This document shows positions 8,816-31,950 of a stretch of 64,000 bases of DNA, piece by piece. Source of the DNA: Clostridiales bacterium (GTDB lineage: Bacteria > Bacillota > Clostridia > DUPQ01). The stretch lies in the NCBI GenBank assembly GCA_023145435.1, contig JAGLDS010000003.1, positions 64,276 through 128,275 on the forward strand, in the 5' to 3' direction. The position numbers and the translations under genes are program-made. The notes under the pieces were generated by a model, which was given only the letters and a program-made list of their open reading frames with translations, ran no database searches and was not told the origin of the DNA. Numbering within the stretch: position 1 is the stretch's first letter; each line of letters starts with the position of its first letter.

Positions 8816-8833
8816 AATATCCTCCTACACCAC

Positions 8834-10102: not shown

Positions 10103-10559
10103 CTTTTTTCCCCCTATAGGTTGATAAAATAGAAGAAATTTTCTCTGGTGTTAAATTCCCATATAGAGTTGCACCAATTTGCAGCGCAGGTGCTTTGTCA
10201 CAGCAACCAAGGCAACTTGAATACTCTATGGTAAAAAGTTTATCAGTAGTAGTTTGACCCATTTTTATTTCTAATATTTTTTCTAATTCATTCACAACAT
10301 TAACAGAACCATTAATATAGCATGGAACATCATAACAAACCATAACTATGTACTTTCCTCTTTCTTTCATAGATAGAAGAGAGTAAAAAGATGCGATACT
10401 ATAAATCCGGCTTTCAGGTATTTTTGTTTCTTTTGCAAATTCCTTGATATCTTCCTCAGTAAGATAATTGCATAGTGTGCTTTTTTGATAAGCAAGCATT
10501 GCACCTATTAACTTATCAGGTGTTTTACCATATTTATCAAGAGCTTCTTTGACTAACAT
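10095..10559 (-). CDS. hydC: NuoE-like [2Fe-2S] thioredoxin-fold subunit of the hydrogenase (HydC/HndA)
   Basis: CYDVPC ... CLGCCDKAP cysteine pattern. Overlaps hydB by 8 nt. GGAGG SD upstream. Confidence 0.85.
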   Translation of the reverse strand: MLVKEALDKYGKTPDKLIGAMLAYQKSTLCNYLTEEDIKEFAKETKIPESRIYSIASFYSLLSMKERGKYIVMVCYDVPCYINGSVNVVNELEKILEIKMGQTTTDKLFTIEYSSCLGCCDKAPALQIGATLYGNLTPEKISSILSTYRGKKDE

Positions 10560-10898
10560 TTTTGATACCTCCTAGGACAAATTTTACTAATATATAAAAA
10601 TAATATTGTTTAAAATAAGGTGTTTAACACAAAGCAGGTATATTACATTATTATTATGGAAGTCCTAAAGTGAGATTCAAAGTAGATACAATCGATCAAA
10701 AACTTAAATTGTACAAACTAAATATTTTTGACAACACTATAGTACACCAAAGGTAATAGTATTTTCAAGAGTTTTTGTTATTTTTTTAACATACTTTTCA
10801 ATTTTCATGGTTTGCTTCTATCTAAATTACTATTTTTATAAAAAAATGATGTATAATAAAAAGTGTAGGGGGGATGTTCTTTATGAATATAAAAACTC

Positions 10899-12425
10899 AT
10901 GATAAAAAATAATAAAAAGAAATTAATTCATATATATATATTCATTTATGGCATAGTTAATCTTTTGTTTTTAACAACATTTCCCATGATGCATTCTGAT
11001 GAATCTTGGCTGTCAGGGTTAACTAGTTCAATGATAGAAAACGGATTATCATCAACAGAAAGTTTTTTTAATTTGTTCCCACGTTTTCCACATGCAATTA
11101 AGATTGTATATCATTTGATTCAAATGGTATTTTTGAAAGTATTTGGGAATTCATTATTTTCTTTTAGATTAATAAGTATATTGTTTGGATTAGCATCAAT
11201 ATATTTAAGCTATCTAATAGCTAAAAAATTATTATCTAGTGAGTTATTTGCTTTATTATTTGCAATAATTGTGTCATTGGATATTCAATTTATATATTCT
11301 TCTCATTTTGCAAGACAAGAAATTATAATTCTAACTGGACTACTATTATGTTTTTATCTATTAATTACCAAGAAAGAGAGTTTTACAGTAAAGCACAATA
11401 TTCTAATTGGGAGTTTAATTGGTTTACTTATAGGTATACACCCAAATAGTTTTATTGTAGCTCTTGTTATTGGTAGTTGTTACATGTATTACATCTTTGT
11501 TGAAATGAAACTAAAATTTTCAGATTTGTTATGGTTAATAATAACTGTTACAGGGTTTGCCATACTATTTATTGGAATGAGCTACTTATTAGATGGTAAC
11601 TTTATTAACAATTATTTAGCTTATGGAAATGAATTAGGGGTTACTAGTTCTATAATAACTAAAAGTAGCGGTTTATTTACTTTTTATCAAAAACTATTTT
11701 TTCAAATAAGTGGCACATATTTTACTCCTTATATTATTATTTCACTTTCGCTATTCTTTATAAGTTTTATTATAGGATGTATATCTTTAATTAAAGATAA
11801 ATCGTTTTGGTTATTTATTATTCCATTAATTGCGATTAATATTGGTTATATAGTTATTGGTCGTTATTCACAACCGTCAATTTTATTTATCTTTCCTTTT
11901 GGATATCTACTACTATTTAAGATAGTAAAAGAATATATAAAAAGTAGAAAAACTATTGTTATTTTAATTATAATAATTGCAATTTTCATTAACAGCTTAA
12001 TAGCTATTATACCAAACAACAATAATGACTATAAAAATTATATTAATATATTGCAAAGAGAAATTGGACAAGAAGAAAAAGTATTGATAAACCTTAATGG
12101 GTTATATGCTTTTTCTTCTGAGAATATATTTGATTATCGAAATTTACATTATCTTGATGACTACAATTTATCATTTAAAGAGTATATAATAGAAAATGAC
12201 ATTACATATATTGTGTATCCAGAAGAAATAGACTTTATATATGATAATAGACCAACTTGGAATATTATATATGGAAATGTATATCCATATTATGAAGATA
12301 TGATAACATTTTTAAACGATCAATGTGAATTAGTAAGTATATTTACTTCACCATATTCTATGAGAATTATTAGGTATAGTGAACAACAAAATTGGTTTAT
12401 AAAAATATATAAAGTGAAAAGGTAA
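10899..12425 (+). CDS. GT-C fold membrane glycosyltransferase (ArnT/PMT_2/YfhO-like)
   Basis: 508 aa with about a dozen hydrophobic segments by eye. There is an acidic DE motif after TM1 (MMHSDESWLSG), as in ArnT/PMT loop 1, and a soluble C-terminal about 130 aa. Confidence 0.6.
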   Translation: MIKNNKKKLIHIYIFIYGIVNLLFLTTFPMMHSDESWLSGLTSSMIENGLSSTESFFNLFPRFPHAIKIVYHLIQMVFLKVFGNSLFSFRLISILFGLASIYLSYLIAKKLLSSELFALLFAIIVSLDIQFIYSSHFARQEIIILTGLLLCFYLLITKKESFTVKHNILIGSLIGLLIGIHPNSFIVALVIGSCYMYYIFVEMKLKFSDLLWLIITVTGFAILFIGMSYLLDGNFINNYLAYGNELGVTSSIITKSSGLFTFYQKLFFQISGTYFTPYIIISLSLFFISFIIGCISLIKDKSFWLFIIPLIAINIGYIVIGRYSQPSILFIFPFGYLLLFKIVKEYIKSRKTIVILIIIIAIFINSLIAIIPNNNNDYKNYINILQREIGQEEKVLINLNGLYAFSSENIFDYRNLHYLDDYNLSFKEYIIENDITYIVYPEEIDFIYDNRPTWNIIYGNVYPYYEDMITFLNDQCELVSIFTSPYSMRIIRYSEQQNWFIKIYKVKR

Positions 12426-12428
12426 GTA

Positions 12429-13550
12429 ATGAAAGTACCATTTAATCAACCATACATTGCTAAGAATCAGGATAAATATTTAAAAGAAGCTGCTAGGTTA
12501 GAAACTGATTACCTTAGTAAAGTACATGGGATATTTAAACAAGACTACCAAGTCGAAGATGTTATTTTAACAACTTCAGCTTCTAATGCTATTGAATTAA
12601 TTTTATTAGCTCTTGATTTACCTAAAGGTAGTGAAGTTATTATGCCTTCGTATACCTATCCTGCTGCATGTAATACTATTATTCGTTATGGTTACCAACT
12701 GGTTTTATGTGATAGTAATAGAAATACTTTAACAATGGAAGTAGAAGATATTATAGATAAGATTAGTAGAAAAACTTCTTGTATTATTCCCTGCCATTAT
12801 GGAGGGGCTTCATGTAATATGGATAAACTAATGGAAATTTGCCACAAAAAAAACATAAAAGTAATTGAAGATGCTGCACTTTCTTTTGGTGCAAAGTATA
12901 AAGATAGATACCTAGGAACTATTGGACATGCTGGAGTTATTAGTTTTGATAAAACAAAAAACATATCAGCTGAAACAGGAGGGATACTCTTGTTAAATAG
13001 TTTAAGTGATAAAACTGTAAAAAGATTACATTATTTGTATGATAATGGAACAAATAAATATGAGTTTTTACAAGGTGAAGTTAAAAATTATTCCTGGAAG
13101 TTAGCAGGATTAAGTGCTAAAATGTCCAATCTTCATGGGGCGTTATTATTTGCACAGTTAGAATATAAAGATGAAATATTTTTTAGAAGAAAAGTATTAT
13201 TTGAACAATATAAAAAAGGGTTAAAAAATGTATGTGTTAGGAATCATTGGCACTTACCTATAATTAATAGTTATAACGAAAATAACTATCATGTGTTTTA
13301 TTTAGTCTTAAATAATAATGCAAGGCGAGAAAAATTACGTATATATTTATTAGATAGAGAAATAAAAGCACAAACACATTATCAACCATTGCACTCTTCT
13401 TCAATGGGAGAAAATATAGGTTATAATTTTGTTGATTTTCCTAACACAAATCATATTACAAATTGTGTATTAAGGTTACCTCTTAACCCTATGTTATCAT
13501 CGGAGCAAATTGACTATGTCATAGAAAGTATCAAGGAATTTGCTTCATGA
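12429..13550 (+). CDS. DegT/WecE-family PLP aminotransferase (NDP-4-keto-6-deoxyhexose aminotransferase-like)
   Basis: ISFDKTKNISAETGG (PLP lysine block), NGTNKYEFLQGEVKNYSW, HYQPLHSS. All resemble WecE/ArnB-type enzymes. Confidence 0.75.
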   Translation: MKVPFNQPYIAKNQDKYLKEAARLETDYLSKVHGIFKQDYQVEDVILTTSASNAIELILLALDLPKGSEVIMPSYTYPAACNTIIRYGYQLVLCDSNRNTLTMEVEDIIDKISRKTSCIIPCHYGGASCNMDKLMEICHKKNIKVIEDAALSFGAKYKDRYLGTIGHAGVISFDKTKNISAETGGILLLNSLSDKTVKRLHYLYDNGTNKYEFLQGEVKNYSWKLAGLSAKMSNLHGALLFAQLEYKDEIFFRRKVLFEQYKKGLKNVCVRNHWHLPIINSYNENNYHVFYLVLNNNARREKLRIYLLDREIKAQTHYQPLHSSSMGENIGYNFVDFPNTNHITNCVLRLPLNPMLSSEQIDYVIESIKEFAS

Positions 13551-14275
13551 GAGAGAAGATATCTGTAGTTGTACCAATCTATAATAGTGAAAAAACAATT
13601 AGAAAGTTATTAAACAGATTACATCTTGTTCTTTATAATTTTAATGATTATGAAATTATTTTAATTGATGACTGTAGTCATGACCAAAGTTATAAAGTTA
13701 TTAAGGAAAGCAATATAACTAATACTACATATATACGATTGTCAAAAAACGTGGGACAACAGCTAGCTACCTTCTATGGATTAATGCAAACATCAGGTGA
13801 TTATGTAATTATTATTGATGATGATTTAGAACAAAATCCTGAAGATATTGTGAAACTGTATAGTGAAATAAAAAAAGGGTTTCATGTAGTTTATGGTATT
13901 GATACAAAGGTTAAACAAAAAAAACTAATTAGATCAATTGGTTCATCATTAAGAGATTGGTTGTTTAACAGACTAACAAATAAACAAAAAAACATTTTAG
14001 TTAGTAGTTTTAGAATTATGGATAGACAATTGGTTAATAAAGTACTTTTAGCAGATTGCAAATTTATTTACCTGTCCATGGAAATATTAAAAAACACTAA
14101 TCTTGTTGGAAATGTAGCTATAACATATGAGAAAAACAAGGAATCTAATTATCACTTGTTATCATTAATAAAAATTTGGTGGATGATTTATCTATATTAT
14201 GGCAAGTGTAATATGTTAAAAATATTTAGAAAAAAATTACAACCATTTATTATTGAAGAAAGAAGCATATCATGA
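13547..14275 (+). CDS. Family-2 glycosyltransferase (polyprenyl-phosphate sugar synthase-like: ArnC/GtrB/CsbB type)
   Basis: VVVPIYNSEKTI N-terminus, the DxD in IIIDDDLEQNPEDI, and a hydrophobic C-terminal segment. The start overlaps the upstream stop (ATGA). Confidence 0.7.
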   Translation: MREKISVVVPIYNSEKTIRKLLNRLHLVLYNFNDYEIILIDDCSHDQSYKVIKESNITNTTYIRLSKNVGQQLATFYGLMQTSGDYVIIIDDDLEQNPEDIVKLYSEIKKGFHVVYGIDTKVKQKKLIRSIGSSLRDWLFNRLTNKQKNILVSSFRIMDRQLVNKVLLADCKFIYLSMEILKNTNLVGNVAITYEKNKESNYHLLSLIKIWWMIYLYYGKCNMLKIFRKKLQPFIIEERSIS

Positions 14276-15546
14276 AAATTATGGTATTAGGTGGTGGTAG
14301 TTGCCAGTTAAACTTAATCAAAGAGCTAAAAAAAAGAAACCACTATGTTATTTTAATTGATTATCTTGTTAGTCCATTAGCAAAACTACTAGTTGACATA
14401 CACCTTCAAATTAGCACATTTGATAATGAAGGGGTTTATTTAGTAGCAAAGAAATATAATATTGAGGGAATAGTTACTTTAGGAACTGATCAACCAGTTC
14501 TTACTTGTGCATATGTAGCTAAACGATTACACCTTCCATTCTATTTAACAGAGCAACAAGCTTTAGAAGTAACAAATAAATTACATATGAAAAAGATTTT
14601 TACAAAGAACCAAATACCCACAGTAAAGTATGTCTTGCTACCAAGTGATTTTAGAGATGAAATGATAAAAAAACTAGTTTTTCCCGTTATCATGAAACCA
14701 GTTGATTCACAAGGACAGAGAGGTATTTTTAAGTGTGAATCAATTAATGATATTAGAGAAAAGATAAAAAAAACATTAGTATATAGCCGTGAAAATGTAG
14801 TGCTTATTGAAGAGTATTACCCAAATGATGAGATTACAATTAATGGTTGGTTAGAAAATGACCAACTTACTATATTATCTGTTGTAGATAGAGTGACAAT
14901 AAATAATACAAGAAGTGTTGGAGTATGTTTGTGTCATAATTTTCCCTCTGTCCATTTAAAAACAAATTATGACCAAATAGAAAAGTTAACAAAGAAAATC
15001 ATAAAAGCATTTTTACTAAAAAATGGACCAATCTACTTTCAATATTTGTTAGGGGATAAGGGAATCAAAGTAAATGAAATTGCCATGAGAATTGGTGGAG
15101 CATATGAAGATTTAACCATGCCTATTATTAGTCAAATTGATATACTTGAATTACTAATTACAAAATTAGAAAAAAAAGATTATAATACCTCACTTTTAAA
15201 AAAATATAATTTGGCAGAGAATCAACAATTTATTTCAACACAACTATTTTTCTGCCATGCTGGACAGGTTAAATCGATGACACCAATAGAGCAAATCAAA
15301 AAAGAAATTGGTGTTACATATGCTGATTACATAATAAAACCTGGAGATGAAATCGGATCAATTAATAATGCTACAGCAAGGGTTGGGTATTTTATTGTAA
15401 CTGGAACATCCTATACTGACCTTATTAAAAATATTAATAATACTTTTGACAAATTACAAGTTTTAGACCAAAATGGACATAATCTGATTATTAAGTATAA
15501 AGACTATAATCAAAAATATATGTTTTTTAGTGAGGATTCAAGTTGA
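14272..15546 (+). CDS. ATP-grasp family ligase
   Basis: MKIMVLGGGSCQ Rossmann-like start, VIMKPVDSQGQRGIF (ATP lysine plus flexible loop), VLIEEYY, NEIAMRIGG. ATGA overlap with the upstream gene. Confidence 0.7.
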   Translation: MKIMVLGGGSCQLNLIKELKKRNHYVILIDYLVSPLAKLLVDIHLQISTFDNEGVYLVAKKYNIEGIVTLGTDQPVLTCAYVAKRLHLPFYLTEQQALEVTNKLHMKKIFTKNQIPTVKYVLLPSDFRDEMIKKLVFPVIMKPVDSQGQRGIFKCESINDIREKIKKTLVYSRENVVLIEEYYPNDEITINGWLENDQLTILSVVDRVTINNTRSVGVCLCHNFPSVHLKTNYDQIEKLTKKIIKAFLLKNGPIYFQYLLGDKGIKVNEIAMRIGGAYEDLTMPIISQIDILELLITKLEKKDYNTSLLKKYNLAENQQFISTQLFFCHAGQVKSMTPIEQIKKEIGVTYADYIIKPGDEIGSINNATARVGYFIVTGTSYTDLIKNINNTFDKLQVLDQNGHNLIIKYKDYNQKYMFFSEDSS

Positions 15547-16943
15547 ATAATAGCAAAAGAGTAATTCACATCATTATTGGTATCTTCTTATTTGTAATTT
15601 GTGTATTTATATTACCAAGAGATTTGTTTGATTTATCAATGAGGTACGTCGTTGCCACTATGATAGTTATGATTTATTGGTGGATAACACGACCTATTCA
15701 CTTAGCTGCTACTGCTCTACTACCAATCTTGGTTAATGCAATTTTTATAATGGCTCCAATGAATACTATTCTTGACGATTACTTTAGTTCGATTGTAGTT
15801 TTAATTATTGGTGCAAATATTTTATTAGCTTCATGGAGTTTGTGGCAATTAGATAAAAGAATTGCGCTAACTTCATTGTCTTTAATTGGAACAAAAGTTA
15901 ATCAACAAATTATAACATGGTTTATTTTATCTGTTATTTTAAGTATGTTTTTACCTAATGTAGTAGTTGTAGCGGCTCTATGTCCTATTGCTTTTTCCAT
16001 GATGAAATACTGCTCAACAGAGCAAGTAGATTACACAAAAAGTAAGACTTTGAATTTATTGCTTATATCTATTGTTTGGGGAGCGGGATTAGGTGGCTTT
16101 GGAACGCCGCTGGGTGGTGCTATGAATTTAGTGGTAATTAGTCATATTGAAGATTTTATTGATAGAGAATTTTTATATATTTCATGGACTGCAAATGTTA
16201 TTGTCTTTTTAGCGCTGATTACAATTGCAATTATTGGTTATTTACTATTATTAAAAAAAGATGTTAAACATTTAGTAGGGTCTAGACAATTCTTCTTAAC
16301 AAAATTACATGACATGGGTAAAATGAGTAAAGGTGAGATAATTTCTCTTGTTTTATTCATACTAGCTTTATTAATGGCATTTACCAGACCGTTATATAGT
16401 AAATTATTACCAAACCTACAACCACAATATGTTTTTTTAATTTTAGCTTTTATTTCGTTTTTTATTAAAATAGATAATAAACGATTAATGACATGGCAAG
16501 TAGCTGTTAAAAATATACACTGGAGTTTAATTATTTTATTTTCAGGAGGATTGGCCATTGGAAAACTATTAGTTAGTAGTGGTGTAGCAACTTCATTAGC
16601 ATCTTTAGTATCAACTTCTGGGATATCAAATGAATTATTGTTATTGGCAGTTTTCATTGCTCTTGGTATGTTTTTGTCTAATACCTCAAGTAATACAGCA
16701 GCTAGTGCAATACTAATTCCTATTGTTATTAGCGTAACAGTTGACTTATCACTTAATACTATGGCTTATATCTTTGTTTCAGCAATTGCCTGTAATATAG
16801 CTTATATATTACCAACATCAATTAGAGCCGTTCCAGTTGATTATGGTTTAGATACTAAGTTCATGCTTAAAAAGGGATTAATGGCTATTGTAATCTCTTA
16901 TGTATTACTTCTTGTAAGTGGGTATATATTTATTTTACTATAA
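15543..16943 (+). CDS. DASS/SLC13-like (ArsB/NhaD superfamily) anion permease
   Basis: 466 aa polytopic protein. C-half hairpin motif FLSNTSSNTAASAILIP (SNT motifs). TTG start overlaps the upstream stop (TTGA). Confidence 0.6.
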   Translation: MNNSKRVIHIIIGIFLFVICVFILPRDLFDLSMRYVVATMIVMIYWWITRPIHLAATALLPILVNAIFIMAPMNTILDDYFSSIVVLIIGANILLASWSLWQLDKRIALTSLSLIGTKVNQQIITWFILSVILSMFLPNVVVVAALCPIAFSMMKYCSTEQVDYTKSKTLNLLLISIVWGAGLGGFGTPLGGAMNLVVISHIEDFIDREFLYISWTANVIVFLALITIAIIGYLLLLKKDVKHLVGSRQFFLTKLHDMGKMSKGEIISLVLFILALLMAFTRPLYSKLLPNLQPQYVFLILAFISFFIKIDNKRLMTWQVAVKNIHWSLIILFSGGLAIGKLLVSSGVATSLASLVSTSGISNELLLLAVFIALGMFLSNTSSNTAASAILIPIVISVTVDLSLNTMAYIFVSAIACNIAYILPTSIRAVPVDYGLDTKFMLKKGLMAIVISYVLLLVSGYIFILL

Positions 16944-16980: not shown

Positions 16981-17205
16981 TTGAAAATGAAAATTATTGA
17001 TTGTTTTGGAGAAATATGTCCTATTCCAGTATTAAGAATAGAAGAAGAAATTAAAAAGGCAAATGCTGGTGATTTTTTCATGATTGTTGTTAATCATAGT
17101 TGTGTTGTACAGTCAATTAAGGATAAGTACAGCAGTCCAAATATAAAAATGAAAATAGATGAAGTAATGAATGGGGTATGGGAGATTACTTTTGAGATTA
17201 CATAA
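16981..17205 (+). CDS. TusA/SirA-like sulfur-carrier protein
   Basis: DCFGEICPIPVL (the conserved Cys-Pro-x-Pro of TusA). 74 aa; the start may instead be ATG 16987. Confidence 0.75.
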   Translation: MKMKIIDCFGEICPIPVLRIEEEIKKANAGDFFMIVVNHSCVVQSIKDKYSSPNIKMKIDEVMNGVWEITFEIT

Positions 17206-18108
17206 TTAACAAAAACTATTTGACCCTTTTTCAGCAAACCATTTAACAAATGCTTTAACGTGATTACTAGGATTCTTTTTAAATATAAGGGCTACTTCTA
17301 AATCCATATCAAAGTCTGGAACAGTAATTTCTTTGAACTGTTTCTTATATAATTCTTCTTTAACAGAGATATATGGTAAAAATGCTATTCCATATTTTCT
17401 AGCTACTAGCATTTTTGCTCCTTCTATTCCTTCAACTTCTAATTTACAGTTTAAGCTACTTTTACTATAGCCTAAACTTTTTAAATTTCTTGTTAAATTA
17501 TTAGTGATTTCACTTCTACTAGTAAAGGTTATAATACAAGCATTAAGTAATTGATCAACAGACATACTGTCAGGAACTTCACTATCGTTAAGACCAATAA
17601 GAACTATTCGATTTACTCCTGTTTCAGTTGATAATACATCGATATTTCCTTTCATCTCAAAATGAGATTTATAGGAAAATCCAATATCGCATATATTATT
17701 TTCAACATCAGTTATTATTTCGTCAGAAAAACTAGTTAGTAATTCATATTTTAAATATGGATTTTCTCGCTTAGCTTCAATTAGAGTACAAGGAAGTGCA
17801 TAATCAGCAATTGAGGGGCAGGCTTCTATTTTTAAAGTAATATTTTCTTTATCATTATTTTCAATTTCTGTAAGCATTTCGTCATAAGTCCGTAAAATAT
17901 TTTTAGCATACAAAAGTACTACTTCTCCGGTTTTTGTCAGAGCAACACCTTTATTACTTCGTTCTAAAAGTTTTTTTCCTAAATCTATTTCTAATTTTTG
18001 AAGTTGCTGGCTTAATGCAGATTGGGAAATATGCTCTTGCTTAGCTACTTTACTTATACTACCAGCCTTAGCTATTAAATAGAAAAATCTCATTGACTCA
18101 GTATTCAT
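17206..18108 (-). CDS. LysR-family transcriptional regulator
   Basis: N-terminal wHTH FFYLIAKAGSISKVAKQEHISQSALSQQLQKLE, 300 aa. Divergent from the YeeE operon; its stop abuts the tusA-like stop with a 0-nt gap. Confidence 0.85.
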   Translation of the reverse strand: MNTESMRFFYLIAKAGSISKVAKQEHISQSALSQQLQKLEIDLGKKLLERSNKGVALTKTGEVVLLYAKNILRTYDEMLTEIENNDKENITLKIEACPSIADYALPCTLIEAKRENPYLKYELLTSFSDEIITDVENNICDIGFSYKSHFEMKGNIDVLSTETGVNRIVLIGLNDSEVPDSMSVDQLLNACIITFTSRSEITNNLTRNLKSLGYSKSSLNCKLEVEGIEGAKMLVARKYGIAFLPYISVKEELYKKQFKEITVPDFDMDLEVALIFKKNPSNHVKAFVKWFAEKGSNSFC

Positions 18109-18162: not shown

Positions 18163-18276
18163 TAAAAAATCTTATACTGCATTATAAAGTGTAATGGAAC
18201 AATAGGTCAATAAAGTGTTAGAATAAATGAGAGTGTTAAATAATTAACAATTGAATTATAGAAAGGATGTGAAATA

Positions 18277-18966
18277 GTGACAACGGGTATTCAAAGATCT
18301 TCAAGTAGTACAAGAAGAAGTCCTAGAAAGAAAAAGAAAAATCAAATTCCATTTGCTATTGGATTATTAATTGTGATTATCCTAATTGGCATATGGTTAG
18401 CAACAAAAGAAAATCACCAGGCACTTTATTGGATGTTAGGATTGGCTTTTGGTTTTATTCTTCAACGTTCAAGATTTTGTTTTACAGCATCAATGAGAGA
18501 CCCTTATCTTACTAGAAGCACATCAGTAACAAAGTCTGTACTTATTGCTTTTGCTATTACTACAATTGGTTTTGCTGCAATTAAGTATGGTTACTTTATA
18601 CAAGAGTTAGCAATTCCAGGACAAAGTTATATAGCACCAATTAGTATTGCGACAGCAGTGGGTGCTTTTATGTTTGGTATTGGAATGGTAATTGCTGGTG
18701 GTTGTGCATCTGGAACTCTTATGAGAATTGGCGAAGGATTTTGGATGCAAGTGTTGGCTTTATTCTTTTTCGTAGTTGGATCCCTTTGGGGAGCTCATGA
18801 CTATGGATGGTGGATGAGGAATTTCATGCTTGCAGGAAAAAGAGTATTTCTACCTGACTACTTAGGTTGGTTTGGAGGAGTATTGTGTAATTTATTGATT
18901 ATAGCTGTTATTTATGTAATTGCACATAAATATGGAAATAAGAAAAGTGAAAGCGAATTACATTAA
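18277..18966 (+). CDS. YeeE/YedE-family sulfur (thiosulfate/selenium) transporter, N-terminal half-protein
   Basis: GTG start 8 nt after AAAGGATG. Conserved cysteine loops RSRFCFTAS and AGGCASGTLMR. Basic Ser/Arg/Lys-rich N-tail. Confidence 0.75.
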   Translation: MTTGIQRSSSSTRRSPRKKKKNQIPFAIGLLIVIILIGIWLATKENHQALYWMLGLAFGFILQRSRFCFTASMRDPYLTRSTSVTKSVLIAFAITTIGFAAIKYGYFIQELAIPGQSYIAPISIATAVGAFMFGIGMVIAGGCASGTLMRIGEGFWMQVLALFFFVVGSLWGAHDYGWWMRNFMLAGKRVFLPDYLGWFGGVLCNLLIIAVIYVIAHKYGNKKSESELH

Positions 18967-18988
18967 TAGTTAAATGGAGGAAAGTAAA

Positions 18989-19219
18989 ATGAGTAAAGAA
19001 GTAGTATTAGATTGTTTTGGAGAAGCGTGTCCAGTTCCATTGGTAAAAGCTGAAAAAGCACTGGAAAAATTAGAGATTAACGATATATTAATCGTGCAGA
19101 TAGACCATAGTTGTGCAATGAAAAATGTACCAGAGTGGGCTAGAAAACAAGGACATAACGTTGAAATCGAAGAAATCGATGATGGCGAATGGGAAGTAAT
19201 TATTGAAAAAGTAAAATAA
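18989..19219 (+). CDS. TusA/YeeD-like sulfur-carrier protein
   Basis: DCFGEACPVPLV motif. I prefer ATG 18989 (GGAGG at 18976-18980, 8-nt spacing) over the track's ATG 18974, which overlaps the SD. Confidence 0.8.
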   Translation: MSKEVVLDCFGEACPVPLVKAEKALEKLEINDILIVQIDHSCAMKNVPEWARKQGHNVEIEEIDDGEWEVIIEKVK

Positions 19220-19253
19220 TATATTTTATTTTTAAGTAGGAGGTTTTACAATT

Positions 19254-19802
19254 TTGAAAGCGTTTTTTGATAAAATAAAACAAAATGAATTTTATAAAAT
19301 GTGGTTTAAAGATGCTTTGCCATATATTACTGGTGCTATTTTATTATCAGTATTTCAAATTGTCACTTTTGCAACAACAAAAAATCCTTGGGGTGTTTCA
19401 GGTGTATTTGCTAATTGGGGTGCATGGTTATATCAATTAATTGGTGGATCTGTGGATAATTGGTATTATTTCAGTTCTCCAGGAGCTCAAGCAACACTAG
19501 AAGCTGGTATTATCAATCATGGGTCTACATGGAGAAACATTGGAATTATTTTTGGAGCATTATTTGCAACTTTGGCAGCATCTGGATTTAAAATTAAGAA
19601 GTTAAAATCATATAAACAAGTAATTGCAGCAAGCTTAGGTGGTTTACTAATGGGCTATGGAGCTAGAATAGCATTTGGATGTAATATTGGTGCTTTATTT
19701 AGTGGGATATCCTCTATGTCTTTATCAGGATGGGTATTTGGGGCATTTATGTTTATAGGTGCAATTGTTGGAAGCAAGTTATTAGTTAAGTACTTTATGT
19801 AA
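19254..19802 (+). CDS. YeeE/YedE-family transporter, C-terminal half-protein
   Basis: TTG start 9 nt after AGGAGG. Conserved RIAFGCNIGALFSG cysteine loop. 182 aa membrane protein. Confidence 0.75.
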   Translation: MKAFFDKIKQNEFYKMWFKDALPYITGAILLSVFQIVTFATTKNPWGVSGVFANWGAWLYQLIGGSVDNWYYFSSPGAQATLEAGIINHGSTWRNIGIIFGALFATLAASGFKIKKLKSYKQVIAASLGGLLMGYGARIAFGCNIGALFSGISSMSLSGWVFGAFMFIGAIVGSKLLVKYFM

Positions 19803-19820: not shown

Positions 19821-21062
19821 ATGGCAAGAGAAAAAAAAGTAGAACAATATGATGTAGTTATTATAGGAGGAGGAGCCTCTGGATTAACTGCAGGTATATA
19901 TTGTGGGAGAGCACGTTTAAAGACATTAATAATCGAACAAGCATTAGTTGGTGGAATTGCCACAAATACTAATGATATTGAGAATTATCCAGGCTTCCCT
20001 GAAGGAATTACAGGAATAGGGTTAATGAATCTTTTTCATCAGCAAGCAAAAAAATTCGATGTTAAATTTAAATTAACAAATGTAAAAACTATCGATTTAA
20101 GTGGAGACATAAAAATAGTTGAAACATTTAGAAATAGATTTGAAGCAAAAACTGTAATAATTTGTAACGGAAGTGTTCCGCGATTAACAGGAGCAATTAA
20201 CGAAGAAAAGTTTTTAGGAAAAGGTATTGCTTTTTGTGCAACTTGTGATGCTGCTGCTAATACTGATAAGGAAGTCTTAGTTATAGGATCAGGAGACGCT
20301 GCAATTGAAGAAGGTATATTCTTAACTAAATTTGCAAGTAAAGTTATGGTGTCAATTATACATGATGAAGGTAAATTTGATTGTAATGAAATTGCAAAAG
20401 CTGCAGCATTAGCTAATCCAAAAATGGAATTTTATCACAACACAGTAGTTGAGAGTTATGAAGGAGATAATGAATTAGATAAAGTTATTCTAAAGAACTT
20501 AAAAACAGGTGAAAAAAAAGCAATTGAATGTGCTACTTGTTTTCTATTCATTGGTTATCTTCCTAATACTAGTTTATACAAAGATATTATAGATATGACA
20601 GATAGAGGTTATATAATAACTGATGAAAATATGAAGACGAATATCCCAGGTGTTTTTGCAGCAGGAGATGTGAGGGACAAACTTCTAAGACAAGTTGCAA
20701 CTTGCGTTGGTGATGCATCAATTGCTGGAGTTATGGCTGAAAAACACATTGCTGAAAGTGAAATATTTGAAGAGCAAATCATGGCAAAAGATGGAATTGC
20801 TTATGTTTATAATGCTATTGAATCAGATCAGAGATATTTTTTATCGTTTATAGAAGAAATTGAAGAAGTCTATAAAGATTATTGTTACCACAGAGTTGAC
20901 ACATATAAGTCAGAAGGTATAGCTGATAGATTAGGTGTTGAATCGTGTCCATCAGTTGTATTTATTAAAGATGGAAAAGTAGAAAAAATTATCTGTGGTG
21001 ATAAATGTAATAAAGACGAAGTACGAGATATTATTAAAAACAATGAAGAAACTAAGAAATAG
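19821..21062 (+). CDS. Thioredoxin-reductase-like flavoprotein fused to a C-terminal Cys-less thioredoxin-fold domain
   Basis: DVVIIGGGASGLTAG (FAD), the redox pair in FCATCDAA, and a second dinucleotide site VIGSGDAAIEEG followed by IIHDEG rather than HRR. The C-terminal about 100 aa have a Trx-like layout but no CxxC. Confidence 0.7.
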   Translation: MAREKKVEQYDVVIIGGGASGLTAGIYCGRARLKTLIIEQALVGGIATNTNDIENYPGFPEGITGIGLMNLFHQQAKKFDVKFKLTNVKTIDLSGDIKIVETFRNRFEAKTVIICNGSVPRLTGAINEEKFLGKGIAFCATCDAAANTDKEVLVIGSGDAAIEEGIFLTKFASKVMVSIIHDEGKFDCNEIAKAAALANPKMEFYHNTVVESYEGDNELDKVILKNLKTGEKKAIECATCFLFIGYLPNTSLYKDIIDMTDRGYIITDENMKTNIPGVFAAGDVRDKLLRQVATCVGDASIAGVMAEKHIAESEIFEEQIMAKDGIAYVYNAIESDQRYFLSFIEEIEEVYKDYCYHRVDTYKSEGIADRLGVESCPSVVFIKDGKVEKIICGDKCNKDEVRDIIKNNEETKK

Positions 21063-21063
21063 T

Positions 21064-21981
21064 ATGAAAGGATGGGTTACAGTGAAAAAAATTATCATTT
21101 ATATACTTATTATAGTAATGATTTCATCGATATTAACAGGTTGTGTTAATTATGATTTTAATGAAACTAACCAGTATATAGTTACACCAAAAGAGGCACT
21201 TAACCTACTAGAAGAAGGCGCAATATTAATTGATGTAGAATCTAGTGAAGATTATGGACTAGTTCATATTGATGGAGCTATTAATATACCTATGGCGTCG
21301 TTAGTTATTAACGAACCATATAACAATATGTTACCAGAGGCTTTTCAAATTGAGCAAGTTATGGGAAAAGCGGGAGTCAGCGAAAATGACACTATTTTAG
21401 TTTATGATCATGGCTCAAATATGAAAGCTGCCAGAGTTCAATGGACAATCAATATGTATGGTAATTTTAATGTTTTTGTTGTTAGCGGTGGCTTAGATGC
21501 ATTAAAAGATGAAAAAGTAAAAACATCTATGGTAGCATCTACTTTACCTTTAACAACTTACCAAACATCTGATAAACAAAAATCATTAATTGTTACATTA
21601 GAGTATGTTAAATCGATTATTAATATACCAGAAGATAAAACAATCATTATAGACACAAGAAGTGTTGAAGAATTCATGGAAGGGACTATTCCCGGAGCAT
21701 GTAACATTGAATATACCTGGAATAACTATGGAAGTGGACAGTATAAATCATCTAGAGATATTCAAATAACATATCTAGACAAAGATATTACTCCTGATAT
21801 GAAAATTATTGTTTTTTGTAAAACATCTATCAGAGCAGCACAAACTTATACGGCACTAAAAGATGCTGGTTATAAAGATGTCAGAGTTTATGATGGTGCA
21901 TGGTTAGAATTTGTAGAAAAAGAAACCCCACAAGTTCCAGCTGATGATATTGTGTCACCATCTTCAAACGACGCTTCATAA
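21064..21981 (+). CDS. Tandem-rhodanese (thiosulfate sulfurtransferase-like) lipoprotein
   Basis: Lipobox ILTGC after a hydrophobic h-region. Domain 1 lacks the Cys (VYDHGSNMKAAR); domain 2 has the active loop FCKTSIRAAQ. The start is ATG 21064 or GTG 21082; the track's 20995 start overlaps the upstream gene. Confidence 0.75.
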   Translation: MKGWVTVKKIIIYILIIVMISSILTGCVNYDFNETNQYIVTPKEALNLLEEGAILIDVESSEDYGLVHIDGAINIPMASLVINEPYNNMLPEAFQIEQVMGKAGVSENDTILVYDHGSNMKAARVQWTINMYGNFNVFVVSGGLDALKDEKVKTSMVASTLPLTTYQTSDKQKSLIVTLEYVKSIINIPEDKTIIIDTRSVEEFMEGTIPGACNIEYTWNNYGSGQYKSSRDIQITYLDKDITPDMKIIVFCKTSIRAAQTYTALKDAGYKDVRVYDGAWLEFVEKETPQVPADDIVSPSSNDAS

Positions 21982-25831: not shown

Positions 25832-25846
25832 AAAGGAGAAGCACTA

Positions 25847-26863: not shown

Positions 26864-27023
26864 GAATATTTAATGAAATTTAGAAATATATATCAAATAA
26901 AAGAAATAAATGGATTAAGAAACAAATAGATGAAATTATGGTATATTATCAATGGATGGGTTGATGATGTTGATAAACAAACAACCTATCTAGAATCTAT
27001 ATGTGATGTGGGGTGAATAAACA

Positions 27024-31284: not shown

Positions 31285-31302
31285 TTAGGAGGAAGAGAAA
31301 AA

Positions 31303-31938: not shown

Positions 31939-31950
31939 AGGAGAAAGAGA

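What the first reader, a model, noticed from the sequence alone, without database searches (positions are those of the whole stretch)
10899..16943. Translationally coupled five-gene cassette: GT-C, WecE-type aminotransferase, GT2, ATP-grasp ligase and DASS-type permease; a possible novel envelope amino-sugar decoration pathway
Seen: there are five co-directional genes. The first junction is a 3-nt gap. The next three are 4-nt start/stop overlaps: ATGA at 13547-13550, ATGA at 14272-14275 and TTGA at 15543-15546. Supporting motifs:
- a DE motif after TM1 of the GT-C protein (HSDESW);
- the PLP-lysine block SFDKTKN and HYQPLHSS in the aminotransferase;
- DDD in the GT2;
- an ATP-grasp lysine and loop;
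- SNT hairpin motifs in the permease.

Established: a cytoplasmic GT2 that makes a polyprenyl-P-sugar, paired with an extracytoplasmic GT-C transferase, decorates teichoic acids, O-antigen or lipid A (CsbB/YfhO, GtrB/GtrC, ArnC/ArnT). ArnB is the aminotransferase of the Ara4N route.

Inference: this looks like an Arn-like logic rebuilt in a Gram-positive-type genome. It has two extra parts that I do not know from described versions:
- an ATP-grasp ligase, which could amide-link an amino acid or carboxylate to the amino sugar;
- an anion permease, which could import that acid.

No flippase (GtrA/ArnEF) or NDP-sugar 4,6-dehydratase is present in the window.

Caveat: the permease sits next to the sulfur locus and could instead carry a sulfur oxyanion.
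Basis: partly seen in the sequence, partly recalled or inferred. Interest (0 to 1): 0.65.

Follow-up and report, generated by a model that had tools for sequence, protein, structure and literature searches.

The report
Glycosylation cassette wired to secreted rhodaneses
Four genes that build a lipid-linked modified amino sugar and transfer it outside the cell are, across hundreds of anaerobic bacterial species, a fixed part of a sulfur-handling gene island, and they probably tag the invariant tail of a secreted sulfur-transfer enzyme, a link between glycosylation and sulfur metabolism that I could not find described.

Summary
In detail: all five ORFs, the junctions, the motifs and the family assignments check out. 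GT-C, the WecE-type aminotransferase, the ArnC/GtrB-type GT2 and the ATP-grasp ligase form a real, conserved module (404 species genomes; present in 53 of 54 long loci). The "missing" dTDP-glucose 4,6-dehydratase is clustered with the module in other genomes. The module is not a free-standing envelope pathway next to a sulfur locus; it is part of that locus. Two secreted rhodanese lipoproteins accompany it in 53 of 54 loci, and the reverse holds in 7 of 7 loci picked through the rhodanese. A dyad, TGTTA-N6-TAACA, marks promoters of island genes, including the cassette's in the window. The DASS permease travels with a small TusA and the LysR gene, not with the ATP-grasp gene. Rhodanese A always ends in D-x-S after a variable linker (55/55; 108/120). 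One clade instead ends in SoxY-type GGCGG, and its two informative loci lack the cassette. My best reading is that GT-C glycosylates this tail. This is a new variant of a known kind, and it can be tested in cultured Halanaerobium, Desulfitobacterium or Clostridium.

The parts
10776..10791 (+). Dyad TGTTATTTTTTTAACA (TGTTA-N6-TAACA), 108 nt upstream of the GT-C start; candidate LysR operator of the cassette promoter
   Evidence: 3 hits in the window against 0.32 expected, all inside the island. 31 hits in 1.4 Mb of related loci against 4.4 expected, 27 of them just upstream of island genes.
10899..12425 (+). GT-C fold membrane glycosyltransferase (508 aa), with the invariant H-S-D-E-S-W motif in the first outer loop and a conserved C-terminal soluble domain
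   Evidence: Pfam PMT/PMT_2. AF2 pLDDT 90. Foldseek matches STT3, PglB, AglB, ALG12, ArnT and Pmt4 at TM 0.5-0.6. Invariant residues. Lies within 600 bp of a rhodanese gene in 60 of 72 loci.
12429..13550 (+). WecE/VioA-type PLP sugar 4-aminotransferase (373 aa)
   Evidence: DegT_DnrJ_EryC1 239 bits; NF008687 340 bits against a 375 cutoff. RmlA and RmlB genes lie directly upstream in other loci.
13547..14275 (+). GT2 polyprenyl-phosphate sugar synthase (242 aa, no TM segment)
   Evidence: Glycos_transf_2. Best PDB matches are ArnC, GtrB and DPMS. No TM-like segment.
14272..15546 (+). ATP-grasp carboxylate-amine ligase (424 aa) of the L-amino-acid-ligase architecture; proposed N-acylase of the 4-amino sugar
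   Evidence: ATP-grasp_4 plus LAL_C2. AF2 pLDDT 93. Foldseek matches 4dim, BL00235, BacD, RizA, PurT and PurK. 404 species genomes carry a relative.
15543..16943 (+). DASS/CitMHS anion permease (466 aa); an island component that travels with the small TusA and LysR
   Evidence: Pfam and TIGR00785. 42-50% identical orthologues sit beside TusA/LysR in L016, L088, L089, L098, L100 and L102.
16724..16739 (+). Second copy of the dyad (TGTTATTAGCGTAACA), inside the 3' end of the DASS gene and 248 nt upstream of the small TusA
   Evidence: Conserved in L004.
16987..17205 (+). Small TusA paralogue (72 aa, CPIP motif); co-varies with the cassette and with the island-type LysR
   Evidence: Pfam TusA. 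46-76% identical copies lie next to LysR in D-x-S loci and are absent from GGCGG loci.
17206..18108 (-). LysR-family regulator of the island
   Evidence: HTH_1 and LysR_substrate. Best NCBIfam hit is the selenium-metabolism LysR, 145 bits against a 250 cutoff. Present in 48 of 54 long loci.
18234..18249 (+). Third copy of the dyad (TGTTAAATAATTAACA), 28 nt upstream of the YeeE-half gene
   Evidence: The same position in L003, L004, L009, L010, L014, L016 and L018.
18277..19802 (+). Split YeeE/YedE-type sulfur (or selenium) transporter: two halves (18277-18966 and 19254-19802) flanking a TusA/YeeD-like gene (18974-19219)
   Evidence: Pfam Sulf_transp, TusA, Sulf_transp. NCBIfam YedE/TsuA and YedF/YeeD hits, all below cutoff. 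Present in 43 of 54 loci.
19821..21062 (+). Thioredoxin-reductase-like flavoprotein (413 aa, CATC motif read from the translation) with a C-terminal extension
   Evidence: TIGR01292 313 bits against a 343 cutoff. Present in 40 of 54 loci.
21082..21981 (+). Rhodanese A: secreted two-domain rhodanese lipoprotein (lipobox LTGC; active loop CKTSIRAA) ending in the invariant D-A-S (codons 21970-21978); proposed acceptor of the GT-C enzyme
   Evidence: D-x-S terminus in 55 of 55 and 108 of 120 family members, against 0.25% of other ORFs.
21998..23587 (+). Rhodanese B: secreted lipoprotein (lipobox LVSC) with four single rhodanese domains, each with a C-Y-S-G cysteine

Best explanation
The finding is four-fifths of a lipid-linked monosaccharide glycosylation module that belongs to a larger, LysR-controlled island for handling sulfur outside the cytoplasmic membrane.

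Proposed mechanism:
(1) dTDP-glucose is converted by RmlB to dTDP-4-keto-6-deoxyglucose. RmlB is clustered in other genomes and must be encoded elsewhere here.
(2) The WecE-type aminotransferase makes dTDP-4-amino-4,6-dideoxyhexose.
(3) The ATP-grasp ligase N-acylates the 4-amino group with a carboxylic acid, using ATP. This is the role that the ArnA formyltransferase domain or WecD plays in known pathways. The acid is unknown.
(4) The TM-less GT2 transfers the sugar to undecaprenyl phosphate.
(5) An unidentified flippase moves the lipid-linked sugar across the membrane.
(6) The GT-C enzyme transfers the sugar to an extracytoplasmic acceptor. I propose this is the invariant C-terminal D-x-S tail, on a flexible Pro/Ser/Thr-rich tether, of the co-encoded rhodanese A lipoprotein.

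Together with rhodanese B, the split YeeE/TusA importer and the TrxR-like reductase, this enzyme takes sulfane sulfur from thiosulfate or polysulfide outside the cell and passes it inward. The DASS permease belongs to the small-TusA/LysR arm of the island and probably carries a sulfur oxyanion or another island substrate; it is not a fixed supplier of the ATP-grasp enzyme.

Shown: the gene families, the folds, the synteny in both directions, secretion signals on the rhodaneses, the invariant tail, enrichment of the dyad, and absence of the cassette in GGCGG-tail loci. Inferred: every chemical step, the order of steps 3 and 4, the acceptor, and the sulfur flow.
For: - Module identity: Pfam and NCBIfam assignments; GT2 nearest to ArnC, GtrB and DPMS; GT-C fold with an invariant acidic outer-loop motif; ATP-grasp ligase fold nearest to the L-amino-acid ligases, PurT and PurK; clustered rmlB passes its equivalog cutoff at 424 and 456 bits against 365.
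- Possible fusions: a GT2+ATP-grasp protein (P0033) and a GT-C+DegT protein (P0212).
- Island membership: among 54 loci of at least 17 kb found through the ATP-grasp protein, GT-C, AT, GT2 and rhodanese genes are each present in 53, LysR in 48, YeeE-like in 43, TusA in 40 and the flavoprotein in 40. The hosts span Clostridia, Halanaerobiales, Christensenellales, Erysipelotrichaceae, Anaerolineales and Calditrichales.
- Reverse direction: 7 of 7 loci picked through rhodanese A alone carry the cassette. Of 35 rhodanese A homologues on contigs of at least 20 kb, 27 share a contig with the cassette, either seen directly or by my manual match of contig lengths between hit lists.
- GT-C lies within 600 bp of a rhodanese gene in 60 of 72 loci.
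- Same compartment: both window rhodaneses have lipoboxes, and almost all neighbouring ones have a lipobox or signal peptide.
- Co-regulation: the TGTTA-N6-TAACA dyad occurs 3 times in the window against 0.32 expected, and 31 times against 4.4 expected across the loci; 27 of those 31 lie upstream of island genes, including GT-C.
- Acceptor: rhodanese A ends in D-x-S in 55 of 55 and 108 of 120 cases, against 0.25% of other ORFs. Six of 120 end in SoxY-type GGCGG or GGGGC. Both informative GGCGG loci keep the sulfur genes in order but lack GT-C, AT, GT2, ATP-grasp, the small TusA and DASS.
- A deliberate falsification attempt (P0334) found the cassette.
- Precedents: glycosylation of a C-terminal Ser or Thr by TfpO and TfpM (PMC9829042); protein glycosylation involving the GT-C enzyme TfpW (bioRxiv 10.1101/2020.04.19.049825); the SoxY GGCGG sulfur-carrier cysteine (PMC6067878).
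- Physiology: gene IDs Ga0073283_11115 and 11116 are among the rhodanese queries in Table S2 of a study that found rhodaneses more abundant in Halanaerobium grown with thiosulfate, and both are abundant in the one readable proteome sample. Sequences in that paper's supplement begin with the same N-termini as the cassette-adjacent pair in L052 and L054 (PMC5497025).
Against: - No experiment shows a glycan on any rhodanese.
- The tail-versus-cassette correlation rests on one GGCGG clade, which is effectively a single evolutionary event, and on only two informative loci.
- The fold of the GT-C enzyme does not discriminate between protein and lipid or polymer acceptors: OSTs, ArnT, ALG12 and Pmt4 all score similarly.
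- Most loci were collected through the ATP-grasp gene, which biases the forward association.
- No flippase gene was found in any locus.
- L087 and L088 lack the aminotransferase, and the ATP-grasp gene of L088 is split, so the pathway is not uniform.
- The regulator, YedE and YedF score best against selenium-associated models, all below cutoff.
- In the window itself the cassette is about 4 kb from the rhodanese operon rather than adjacent to it.
Confidence: 0.5

Rival explanations
1. The cassette decorates an envelope polymer or lipid (teichoic acid, another wall polymer, or a glycolipid) with an amino sugar that the ATP-grasp enzyme has amide-linked to an acid imported by the adjacent transporter. 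The sulfur genes are co-regulated neighbours because envelope chemistry must change when cells handle sulfide, polysulfide or thiosulfate. The rhodanese is not the acceptor.
For: The GT2 plus GT-C logic is the one used for teichoic acid and lipid A decoration (established knowledge: CsbB/YfhO, GtrB/GtrC, ArnC/ArnT). The GT2 is nearest to ArnC and ArnT is among the fold matches. A transporter gene directly follows the ATP-grasp gene in most loci: SsuA-like in 50, DASS in 3, BrnQ in L087. In the window the junction is a 4-nt overlap.
Against: Three unrelated transporter families occupy that slot, and 16 or more loci have none of them there, so a single imported acid is unlikely. DASS sits next to TusA/LysR, away from the ATP-grasp gene, in L088, L089, L098, L100 and L102. 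This model does not explain the invariant D-x-S tail, the loss of the cassette in the GGCGG clade, or why GT-C in particular abuts the rhodanese genes.
Confidence: 0.25
2. The island handles selenium rather than sulfur. YedE, YedF, the LysR and the secreted rhodaneses capture and import selenite or another selenium species, and the glycan serves that process.
For: The best NCBIfam hits for the regulator (NF040786, 145 bits), the YedE half (NF033796, 101 bits) and the middle TusA (YedF TIGR03527, 47 bits) are the selenium-associated models. Rhodanese A also hits ExtH, the rhodanese-like protein model of the selenite/tellurite reduction operon, below cutoff. Comparative genomics has linked YedE, YedF and a LysR subfamily to selenium use (PMC5322559).
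Against: All these scores are far below the model cutoffs, and the thiosulfate models TsuA and YeeD score about as well. No selD or other selenium gene lies in the window. Rhodanese abundance in Halanaerobium rose with thiosulfate (PMC5497025). The SoxY-type GGCGG variant points to sulfur chemistry.
Confidence: 0.15
3. Neighbourhood without shared function. The cassette is a general surface-glycan pathway that sits in a syntenic block with sulfur genes by descent, and the D-x-S tail has an unrelated role, for example docking to rhodanese B or to YeeE.
For: Synteny alone does not prove function. Most loci come from related anaerobic Bacillota. The GGCGG contrast is a single clade.
Against: The block has been rearranged into at least three architectures, yet the genes stay together. 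It occurs in different phyla: Bacillota, Chloroflexota (Anaerolineales) and Calditrichota. Sugar genes and sulfur genes are interleaved: the ABC transporter lies between the ATP-grasp and GT-C genes, GT2 lies between DASS and TusA in L088, and RmlB lies next to DASS in L102. A shared dyad marks their promoters.
Confidence: 0.07

Closest known systems
Arn pathway (ArnB, ArnA, ArnC, ArnD, ArnE/F, ArnT): lipid A aminoarabinose modification
   Same: A PLP 4-aminotransferase acts on an NDP-4-keto sugar. The amine is N-acylated before transfer. An ArnC-like GT2 makes the undecaprenyl-phosphate sugar. A GT-C enzyme then transfers it outside the membrane. The GT2's best solved-structure matches are ArnC entries, and ArnT is among the GT-C fold matches.
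   Different: The sugar is a dTDP-6-deoxyhexose made through RmlB, not a UDP-pentose made through ArnA. N-acylation is by an ATP-grasp ligase rather than a formyltransferase. No ArnD deformylase or ArnE/F flippase is present. The hosts are mostly Gram-positive-type anaerobes. The module is embedded in a sulfur island, and the acceptor is probably not lipid A.
Ppm1/Pmt protein O-mannosylation of secreted lipoproteins in Actinobacteria, and the PgfS/PgfM system of Streptococcus mutans (recalled from my own knowledge)
   Same: A GT2 polyprenyl-phosphate sugar synthase is paired with a PMT-type GT-C enzyme that glycosylates secreted or lipid-anchored proteins on flexible Ser/Thr-rich regions. The GT-C protein hits Pfam PMT and PMT_2, and the GT2 hits the PgfS model at 78 bits, far below cutoff.
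   Different: The sugar is a modified 4-amino-6-deoxyhexose, not mannose or HexNAc. The proposed site is one defined C-terminal D-x-S motif on one dedicated substrate encoded in the same island.
TfpO/TfpM (C-terminal Ser/Thr O-glycosylation of pilins) and TfpW (GT-C pilin arabinosylation)
   Same: A dedicated transferase is encoded next to its single protein substrate. TfpO and TfpM glycosylate the very last Ser or Thr (PMC9829042). TfpW is a GT-C enzyme whose loss abolishes pilin glycosylation with D-arabinofuranose (bioRxiv 10.1101/2020.04.19.049825).
   Different: TfpO and TfpM are Wzy_C-type O-oligosaccharyltransferases (recalled from my own knowledge) that transfer preassembled oligosaccharides from lipid-linked precursors, not GT-C enzymes. 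The substrates are pilins, not sulfurtransferases.
SoxYZ sulfur-carrier protein
   Same: A C-terminal flexible arm carries the reactive group for covalent sulfur intermediates outside the cytoplasm. A clade of rhodanese A orthologues ends in exactly the SoxY motif GGCGG.
   Different: SoxY is a separate carrier protein of sulfur oxidisers. Here the arm is fused to a rhodanese in fermentative or sulfur-reducing anaerobes, and in most lineages it ends in D-x-S, which has no cysteine.
WecE/WecD (dTDP-Fuc4NAc for enterobacterial common antigen) and VioA/VioB
   Same: A 4-aminotransferase acts on dTDP-4-keto-6-deoxyglucose and the product is then N-acylated. The window protein scores 340 bits on the WecE-type equivalog model.
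   Different: The score is below the cutoff of 375. Acylation is ATP-dependent (ATP-grasp) rather than acyl-CoA-dependent. The product goes onto a polyprenyl monophosphate through a GT2 rather than into a repeat unit.

Membership tests
GT-C superfamily glycosyltransferases | Multi-pass membrane protein with the GT-C fold | tested here: met
   The AF2 model has pLDDT 90 and pTM 0.91. Foldseek probability is 1.00 to STT3, PglB, AglB, ALG12, ArnT, AftA and Pmt4, at TM 0.5-0.6.
GT-C superfamily glycosyltransferases | Acidic catalytic motif (DxD, ExD or DE) in the first extracytoplasmic loop | tested here: met
   H32, S33, D34, E35 and W37 are invariant in 32 family members and lie just after TM1.
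GT-C superfamily glycosyltransferases | Uses a polyprenyl-phosphate-linked sugar donor | not testable with these tools
   Inferred only from the adjacent ArnC/GtrB-type GT2.
ArnT / GT83 (lipid A Ara4N transferase) | Sequence membership in the ArnT family and lipid A as acceptor | tested here: not met
   Only weak Pfam PMT/PMT_2 hits at 31 bits. No NCBIfam ArnT model was hit. The family profile has no sequence-level match to any PDB chain, including ArnT. ArnT is not the top fold match. Database labels of 'ArnT family' are automatic names.
DegT/DnrJ/EryC1 sugar aminotransferases, WecE-type | Pfam PF01041 above cutoff with the PLP-lysine region | tested here: met
   239 bits against a cutoff of 19.8. 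SFDKTKN at aa 172.
DegT/DnrJ/EryC1 sugar aminotransferases, WecE-type | Equivalog-level identity with dTDP-4-amino-4,6-dideoxygalactose transaminase | tested here: not met
   NF008687 scores 340 bits, below the cutoff of 375; TIGR02379 scores 265 bits, below 435. The protein is WecE-like, but the C4 stereochemistry is undetermined.
Polyprenyl-phosphate glycosyltransferases (ArnC/GtrB/DPMS-type GT2) | GT-A catalytic domain with DxD, closest to ArnC, GtrB and DPMS | tested here: met
   PF00535 at 90 bits. DDD at aa 91. Top PDB hits are 9hwj, 9bhc and 8vxh (ArnC), 5ekp (GtrB) and 5mlz (DPMS).
Polyprenyl-phosphate glycosyltransferases (ArnC/GtrB/DPMS-type GT2) | C-terminal transmembrane helices anchoring the enzyme, as in ArnC and GtrB | tested here: not met
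   The protein is 242 aa with no TM-like segment. The alignments to ArnC end at about residue 175-212. It resembles the short, TM-less members such as PpgS or Ppm1 (the resemblance is recalled from my own knowledge); the PpgS model hit is E 7.6e-4.
ATP-grasp L-amino-acid-ligase-like enzymes | ATP-grasp fold plus the LAL C-terminal domain | tested here: met
   ATP-grasp_4 at 40.7 bits against 27, and LAL_C2 at 43.9 bits against 29.4. Foldseek TM 0.72-0.76 to BL00235, BacD and RizA.
ATP-grasp L-amino-acid-ligase-like enzymes | Ligates two free L-amino acids | not testable with these tools
   The fold is equally close to PurT (formate), PurK (bicarbonate) and the uncharacterised 4dim. The gene context argues that an amino sugar is the amine partner.
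DASS (divalent anion:Na+ symporter) family | Family HMMs and about 14 TM segments with SNT hairpin motifs | tested here: inconclusive
   Pfam CitMHS at 124 bits and Na_sulph_symp at 103 bits are above cutoff. TIGR00785 scores 135 bits, below its cutoff of 198.6. There are 14 TM-like segments, but SNT occurs only at aa 379 and 383, in a single hairpin.
Complete Arn-type pathway | Presence of ArnA (dehydrogenase/formyltransferase), ArnD deformylase and ArnE/F flippase | tested here: not met
   None of these is in the window or in the annotated related loci.
Rhodanese (thiosulfate sulfurtransferase) lipoproteins | Rhodanese domain with a catalytic Cys loop, and a secretion or lipoprotein signal | tested here: met
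   Pfam Rhodanese. Loop CKTSIRAA in rhodanese A and four C-Y-S-G loops in rhodanese B. Lipoboxes LTGC and LVSC.
NCBIfam NF045521 'rhoda_near_glyco' | Score above the curated cutoff of 145 bits | tested here: not met
   Scores are 39-102 bits for seven rhodaneses from four loci.

The most novel reading that the evidence does not exclude
The glycan is a prosthetic group. The module builds a thiol-bearing or otherwise sulfur-reactive N-acyl-4-amino-4,6-dideoxyhexose, for example N-cysteinyl as in bacillithiol and mycothiol, or a sugar thiolated through the small TusA. GT-C installs it on the last serine of rhodanese A. This would turn the flexible tail into a SoxY-like swinging arm that carries sulfane sulfur from the rhodanese active site to rhodanese B or the YeeE importer. 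Lineages that encode GGCGG at the tail have the thiol built in and have dispensed with the cassette, the small TusA and the permease. It would be a new kind of post-translational cofactor: a glycan-borne thiol on an extracytoplasmic enzyme.
Probability: 0.2. Interest if true: 0.92.

Novelty: new variant of a known kind. Interest (0 to 1): 0.74.

Why it matters
How fermentative and sulfur-reducing Gram-positive-type anaerobes take sulfur from thiosulfate, polysulfide or elemental sulfur outside the cell is poorly understood. The Halanaerobium species responsible for souring and corrosion in shale wells are one example. The rhodaneses implicated in that process (PMC5497025) turn out to be secreted lipoproteins, encoded in an island that always carries a dedicated glycosylation module. 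If the glycan sits on the rhodanese tail, this would be a substrate-specific protein glycosylation system with a defined C-terminal site in Bacillota and other phyla. It would also give an ATP-grasp enzyme a new job, N-acylating a nucleotide amino sugar, and would suggest a functional parallel with the SoxY carrier arm of sulfur oxidisers. The hypothesis can be tested directly by mass spectrometry of one protein in organisms that are already in culture.

Tried and rejected
- Rfam scan of the whole window: no hits, so there is no riboswitch or leader RNA to explain regulation.
- Consensus promoter scan: not above shuffled expectation in this AT-rich DNA, so uninformative. The only two terminator-like sites are on the - strand.
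- Sequence search of the GT-C family profile against the PDB: no hit even at E = 1, so fold search was needed.
- NCBIfam model 'rhoda_near_glyco' looked like prior recognition of the association, but none of seven rhodaneses reaches its cutoff. Rejected as evidence.
- Halanaerobium proteomics supplement: the stored table is cut to one sample, so no comparison with and without thiosulfate was possible for the cassette proteins. IDs that by my inferred gene order would be AT, ATP-grasp, the binding protein, the ATPase and GT-C are detected at only 1-5 spectra.
- Flippase search: the small unannotated ORFs after the ATP-grasp gene (L088 92 aa, L089 157 aa) and the L084 58-aa, L087 141-aa and L087 326-aa ORFs show no GtrA-like set of membrane helices. 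A 272-aa ORF in L087 has two TM-like segments and was not pursued.
- Metagenome scan for more GGCGG-tailed loci: only 9 short loci, none adding an informative GGCGG context.
- Literature searches combining rhodanese, YeeE, glycosyltransferase, ATP-grasp, ArnT, Firmicutes and 4-amino sugar terms found no description of this system.
- Using the fold to name the ATP-grasp enzyme's acid: rejected, because LALs, PurT, PurK and biotin carboxylase are equally close.
- 'The DASS permease feeds the ATP-grasp enzyme' as a general rule: rejected on synteny, though not excluded for the window clade.

Full report
**1. The observation**

An independent gene call on the source metagenome scaffold, labelled a Clostridiales/Clostridia MAG, gives the same products. 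The junctions are a 3-nt gap, then ATGA, ATGA and TTGA overlaps, at the stated coordinates. All quoted peptide motifs are present.

- GT-C protein: PMT/PMT_2.
- Aminotransferase: DegT_DnrJ_EryC1, with a near-equivalog WecE-type score of 340 bits against a 375 cutoff.
- GT2: Glycos_transf_2, with ArnC and PgfS as the best NCBIfam models, far below cutoff.
- Ligase: ATP-grasp_4 plus the L-amino-acid-ligase C-terminal domain.
- Permease: CitMHS/Na_sulph_symp/DASS.

No + strand terminator interrupts the cassette and no Rfam family is present in the window.

**2. Structures and nearest relatives**

The GT2's closest solved structures are ArnC, GtrB and DPMS, all of them polyprenyl-phosphate sugar synthases. 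It has no transmembrane segment.

The GT-C family profile has no sequence-level match in the PDB. An AlphaFold model built from 32 homologues (pLDDT 90) has the GT-C fold. It is about equally distant from the protein-glycosylating OSTs (STT3, PglB, AglB), ALG12, ArnT, AftA and Pmt4, at TM 0.5-0.6. H32, S33, D34, E35 and W37 in the first outer loop are invariant, and many residues of the C-terminal soluble domain are too.

The ATP-grasp model (pLDDT 93) is closest to an uncharacterised structural-genomics protein (4dim), to the L-amino-acid ligases BL00235, BacD and RizA, and equally to PurT, PurK and biotin carboxylase. The fold says carboxylate-amine ligase. It does not say which acid.

**3. 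Synteny**

A profile of the ATP-grasp family found relatives in 404 of the species-representative genomes, and 80 loci were fetched. tblastn with the window proteins, and with neighbour proteins annotated in two reference loci, gave the following for the 54 loci of at least 17 kb:

| Gene family | Loci with it (of 54) |
|---|---|
| ATP-grasp | 54 |
| Aminotransferase | 53 |
| GT2 | 53 |
| GT-C | 53 |
| Rhodanese | 53 |
| LysR | 48 |
| YeeE/YedE-type transporter | 43 |
| TusA | 40 |
| Flavoprotein disulfide reductase | 40 |
| ABC ATPase | 39 |
| ABC permease | 37 |
| SsuA-like binding protein | 36 |
| RmlB-like | 25 |
| RmlA-like | 10 |
| DASS | 2 |

The hosts span Clostridia, Halanaerobiales, Christensenellales, Erysipelotrichaceae, Peptococcaceae, Eubacteriaceae, Anaerolineales (Chloroflexota) and Calditrichales.

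The clustered RmlB-like proteins pass the dTDP-glucose 4,6-dehydratase equivalog cutoff, at 424 and 456 bits against 365.

Two main architectures exist:
- Rh > Rh > GT-C > AT > GT2 > AG, in 21 loci.
- AT > GT2 > AG > [ABC] followed by GT-C on the opposite strand, divergent from Rh > Rh, in 44 loci.

The window clade is a third architecture, in which the cassette sits upstream of DASS-TusA. GT-C lies within 600 bp of a rhodanese gene in 60 of 72 loci. Two database proteins are possible fusions, GT2+ATP-grasp (P0033) and GT-C+DegT (P0212). Each is a single observation and could be an assembly artefact.

**4. The permease**

The gene directly after the ATP-grasp gene is an SsuA-like binding protein in 50 loci, DASS in 3, RmlB in 4, GT-C on the opposite strand in 7, and other or unlabelled in 16. 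In L087 it is a BrnQ-type transporter.

DASS orthologues at 42-50% identity, the same divergence as the other island genes, recur beside the small TusA and the LysR gene, away from the ATP-grasp gene. This is seen in L088, L089, L098, L100 and L102, and DASS is also present in L016. The AG/DASS overlap in the window therefore reflects where the cassette sits in this clade. It is not a general enzyme-transporter pairing.

**5. The sulfur side**

Both window rhodaneses are lipoproteins, with lipoboxes LTGC and LVSC. Almost all rhodaneses next to the cassette in other loci carry a lipobox or a type I signal peptide. A strict pattern caught 83 of 129. Most of the rest visibly have one. The exceptions are the cytoplasmic 565-aa flavoprotein-rhodanese fusions.

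The rhodaneses therefore act on the same side of the membrane as the GT-C active site.

The rest of the island comprises a split YeeE/YedE-type transporter with a TusA/YeeD-like gene between the halves, a TrxR-like flavoprotein, a LysR regulator and a second small TusA.

In Halanaerobium, rhodaneses were reported as more abundant with thiosulfate. Gene IDs Ga0073283_11115 and 11116 are among the rhodanese queries in that paper's Table S2, and both are abundant in the one proteome sample I could read. Sequences in the paper's supplement begin with the same N-termini as the cassette-adjacent pair in L052 and L054. The paper never mentions the adjacent glycosylation genes (PMC5497025).

**6. Regulation**

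A dyad, TGTTA-N6-TAACA, occurs three times in the 64-kb window against 0.32 expected, and all three copies are in the island:
- 108 nt upstream of GT-C.
- 248 nt upstream of the small TusA.
- 28 nt upstream of the YeeE-half gene.

Across 1.4 Mb of related loci it occurs 31 times against 4.4 expected, with a shuffle maximum of 7. Of these, 27 sit just upstream of island genes: rhodanese 10, YeeE-type 9, GT-C 3, LysR 3, TusA 2. This is a candidate operator that places the cassette and the sulfur genes in one regulon.

**7. The reverse association and the tail**

Starting from rhodanese A instead, every context examined for a D-x-S or N-x-S protein had GT-C, GT2 and ATP-grasp genes beside it. These were L087-L090, L096 and L098 and L102. 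L102 was chosen as a falsification attempt because its contig did not appear in the cassette hit lists.

Of 35 rhodanese A homologues on contigs of at least 20 kb, 27 share a contig with the cassette, 2 do not, and 6 are undetermined. This count comes from direct look-ups plus my manual matching of contig lengths between the hit lists.

All 55 rhodanese A proteins in the loci end in D-x-S (DAS 25, DNS 14, DGS 13, three others). The motif follows a Pro/Ser/Thr-rich linker that runs 20-90 residues from the GAWxEW motif to the C-terminus, measured on the independent homologue set. Of those 120 independent database homologues, 108 end in D-x-S, 6 in N-[GA]-S, and 6 in GGCGG or GGGGC. Only 3 of 1,180 other ORFs (0.25%) end in D-x-S.

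GGCGG at the C-terminus is the SoxY motif, whose cysteine binds the sulfur substrate (PMC6067878). I predicted that GGCGG-tailed loci would lack the cassette. Both informative loci, L091 and L092, keep LysR-YeeE-TusA-YeeE-TrxR-RhA-RhB in order. They lack GT-C, AT, GT2, ATP-grasp, the small TusA and DASS. Their LysR is only 27% identical to the window's, against 46-59% in D-x-S loci.

Over all loci with adequate flanks, D/N-x-S tails go with the cassette in 61 of 61 cases. The GGCGG proteins form one clade, so this contrast amounts to one evolutionary event.

**8. Interpretation**

The best-supported reading has two parts:
- The four glyco genes build an N-acylated dTDP-4-amino-4,6-dideoxyhexose and move it to undecaprenyl phosphate.
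- After flipping, GT-C transfers the sugar to the C-terminal D-x-S tail of rhodanese A.

There are precedents for glycosylation of a terminal Ser or Thr (TfpO and TfpM; PMC9829042) and for protein glycosylation involving a GT-C enzyme (TfpW). The Actinobacterial Ppm1/Pmt system that O-mannosylates lipoproteins is the closest analogy I know from memory.

I hold membership of the module in the island at about 0.85 and the tail as acceptor at about 0.45. Envelope-polymer decoration remains a serious rival. A role in selenium rather than sulfur cannot be excluded, because the regulator, YedE and YedF score best, though below cutoff, on selenium-associated models (PMC5322559).

**9. Novelty**

I found no paper linking secreted rhodaneses with a GT-C/GT2/aminotransferase/ATP-grasp module. 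The NCBIfam model named 'rhoda_near_glyco' does not cover these proteins. The machinery is a new variant of the known GT2/GT-C three-component glycosylation logic. Its obligate tie to extracytoplasmic sulfur trafficking, the ATP-grasp step and the invariant tail are the new elements.

The most novel reading still open is a glycan-borne thiol that acts as a SoxY-like swinging arm. I give that about 0.2.

Noticed in passing
window 10870-10912: A 9-codon upstream ORF (MNIKTHDKK*, 10883-10912) with a strong Shine-Dalgarno run (GGGGGG at 10870-10875) overlaps the GT-C start codon at 10899, which itself has no obvious ribosome-binding site. This may be a leader peptide or translational coupling.
   Followed up: no
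L091 10001-10903; L092 8240-9139; proteins P0336, P0343, P0344, P0345, P0347, P0348: A clade of rhodanese A orthologues ends in the SoxY-type GGCGG (or GGGGC) motif instead of D-x-S. The two informative loci lack the glyco cassette, the small TusA and DASS, and have a different LysR (27% identity).
   Followed up: yes
L087 12676-17504 (protein P0327): A variant island: rhodanese A ends in ...SNGS, the cassette lacks the aminotransferase, the GT-C gene is shorter (473 aa), and a BrnQ-type branched-chain amino-acid transporter follows the ATP-grasp gene. Five other homologues share the N-[GA]-S tail.
   Followed up: partly
L088 3680-6115 and 12660-15536: A rearranged island: DASS-GT2-TusA lie upstream of LysR and GT-C-ATP-grasp lie downstream of the rhodaneses. 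There is no aminotransferase, and the ATP-grasp gene is split into 336 + 92 aa, which could be a frameshift or decay.
   Followed up: partly
proteins P0033 (665 aa) and P0212 (884 aa): Apparent fusions of GT2 with ATP-grasp and of GT-C with the DegT aminotransferase. Each is a single observation on a short contig (2.9 and 15 kb). They could be real Rosetta-stone fusions or single-base assembly errors at overlapping gene junctions.
   Followed up: partly
window 7091-10559 (- strand): A three-gene cluster that looks like an electron-bifurcating HydABC-type [FeFe] hydrogenase lies divergent from the cassette: Fe_hyd_lg_C/NADH-G (574 aa), Complex1_51K (422 aa) and 2Fe-2S thioredoxin-like (154 aa).
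   Followed up: no
window 23828-28046: Directly after the rhodaneses comes a 667-aa protein with no Pfam hit, then a GDSL-type lipase/SsfX3-like protein and a GH172-like protein. These were not among the families I probed in related loci, so they are probably not part of the island.
   Followed up: no
window 30310-32454: A second redox trio: a Pyr_redox_2 (thioredoxin-reductase-like) protein of 324 aa, a thioredoxin-like protein of 211 aa and a ferritin of 167 aa. A sulfatase-family gene lies further on at 36647-37999.
   Followed up: no
window 10001-16000: G+C content of the cassette region (0.26-0.28) is slightly below that of the flanks (0.29-0.33). In this clade the cassette sits at a different place in the island from the two common architectures, which suggests relocation within the island.
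   Followed up: no
L020-L023, L029, L030, L042, L079, L083 (about 565-aa proteins): Many Clostridium- and Halanaerobium-type islands carry a cytoplasmic CoA-disulfide-reductase-like flavoprotein fused to a rhodanese domain (Npsr-like) and a 432-aa fused YeeE-type protein. The window has a TrxR-like protein and a split YeeE instead.
   Followed up: partly
PDB 4dim (Anaerococcus prevotii): The closest solved structure to the ATP-grasp ligase is deposited as 'phosphoribosylglycinamide synthetase', yet it aligns full-length with this family (98 bits). It is probably a misnamed member of a related uncharacterised ligase family.
   Followed up: no
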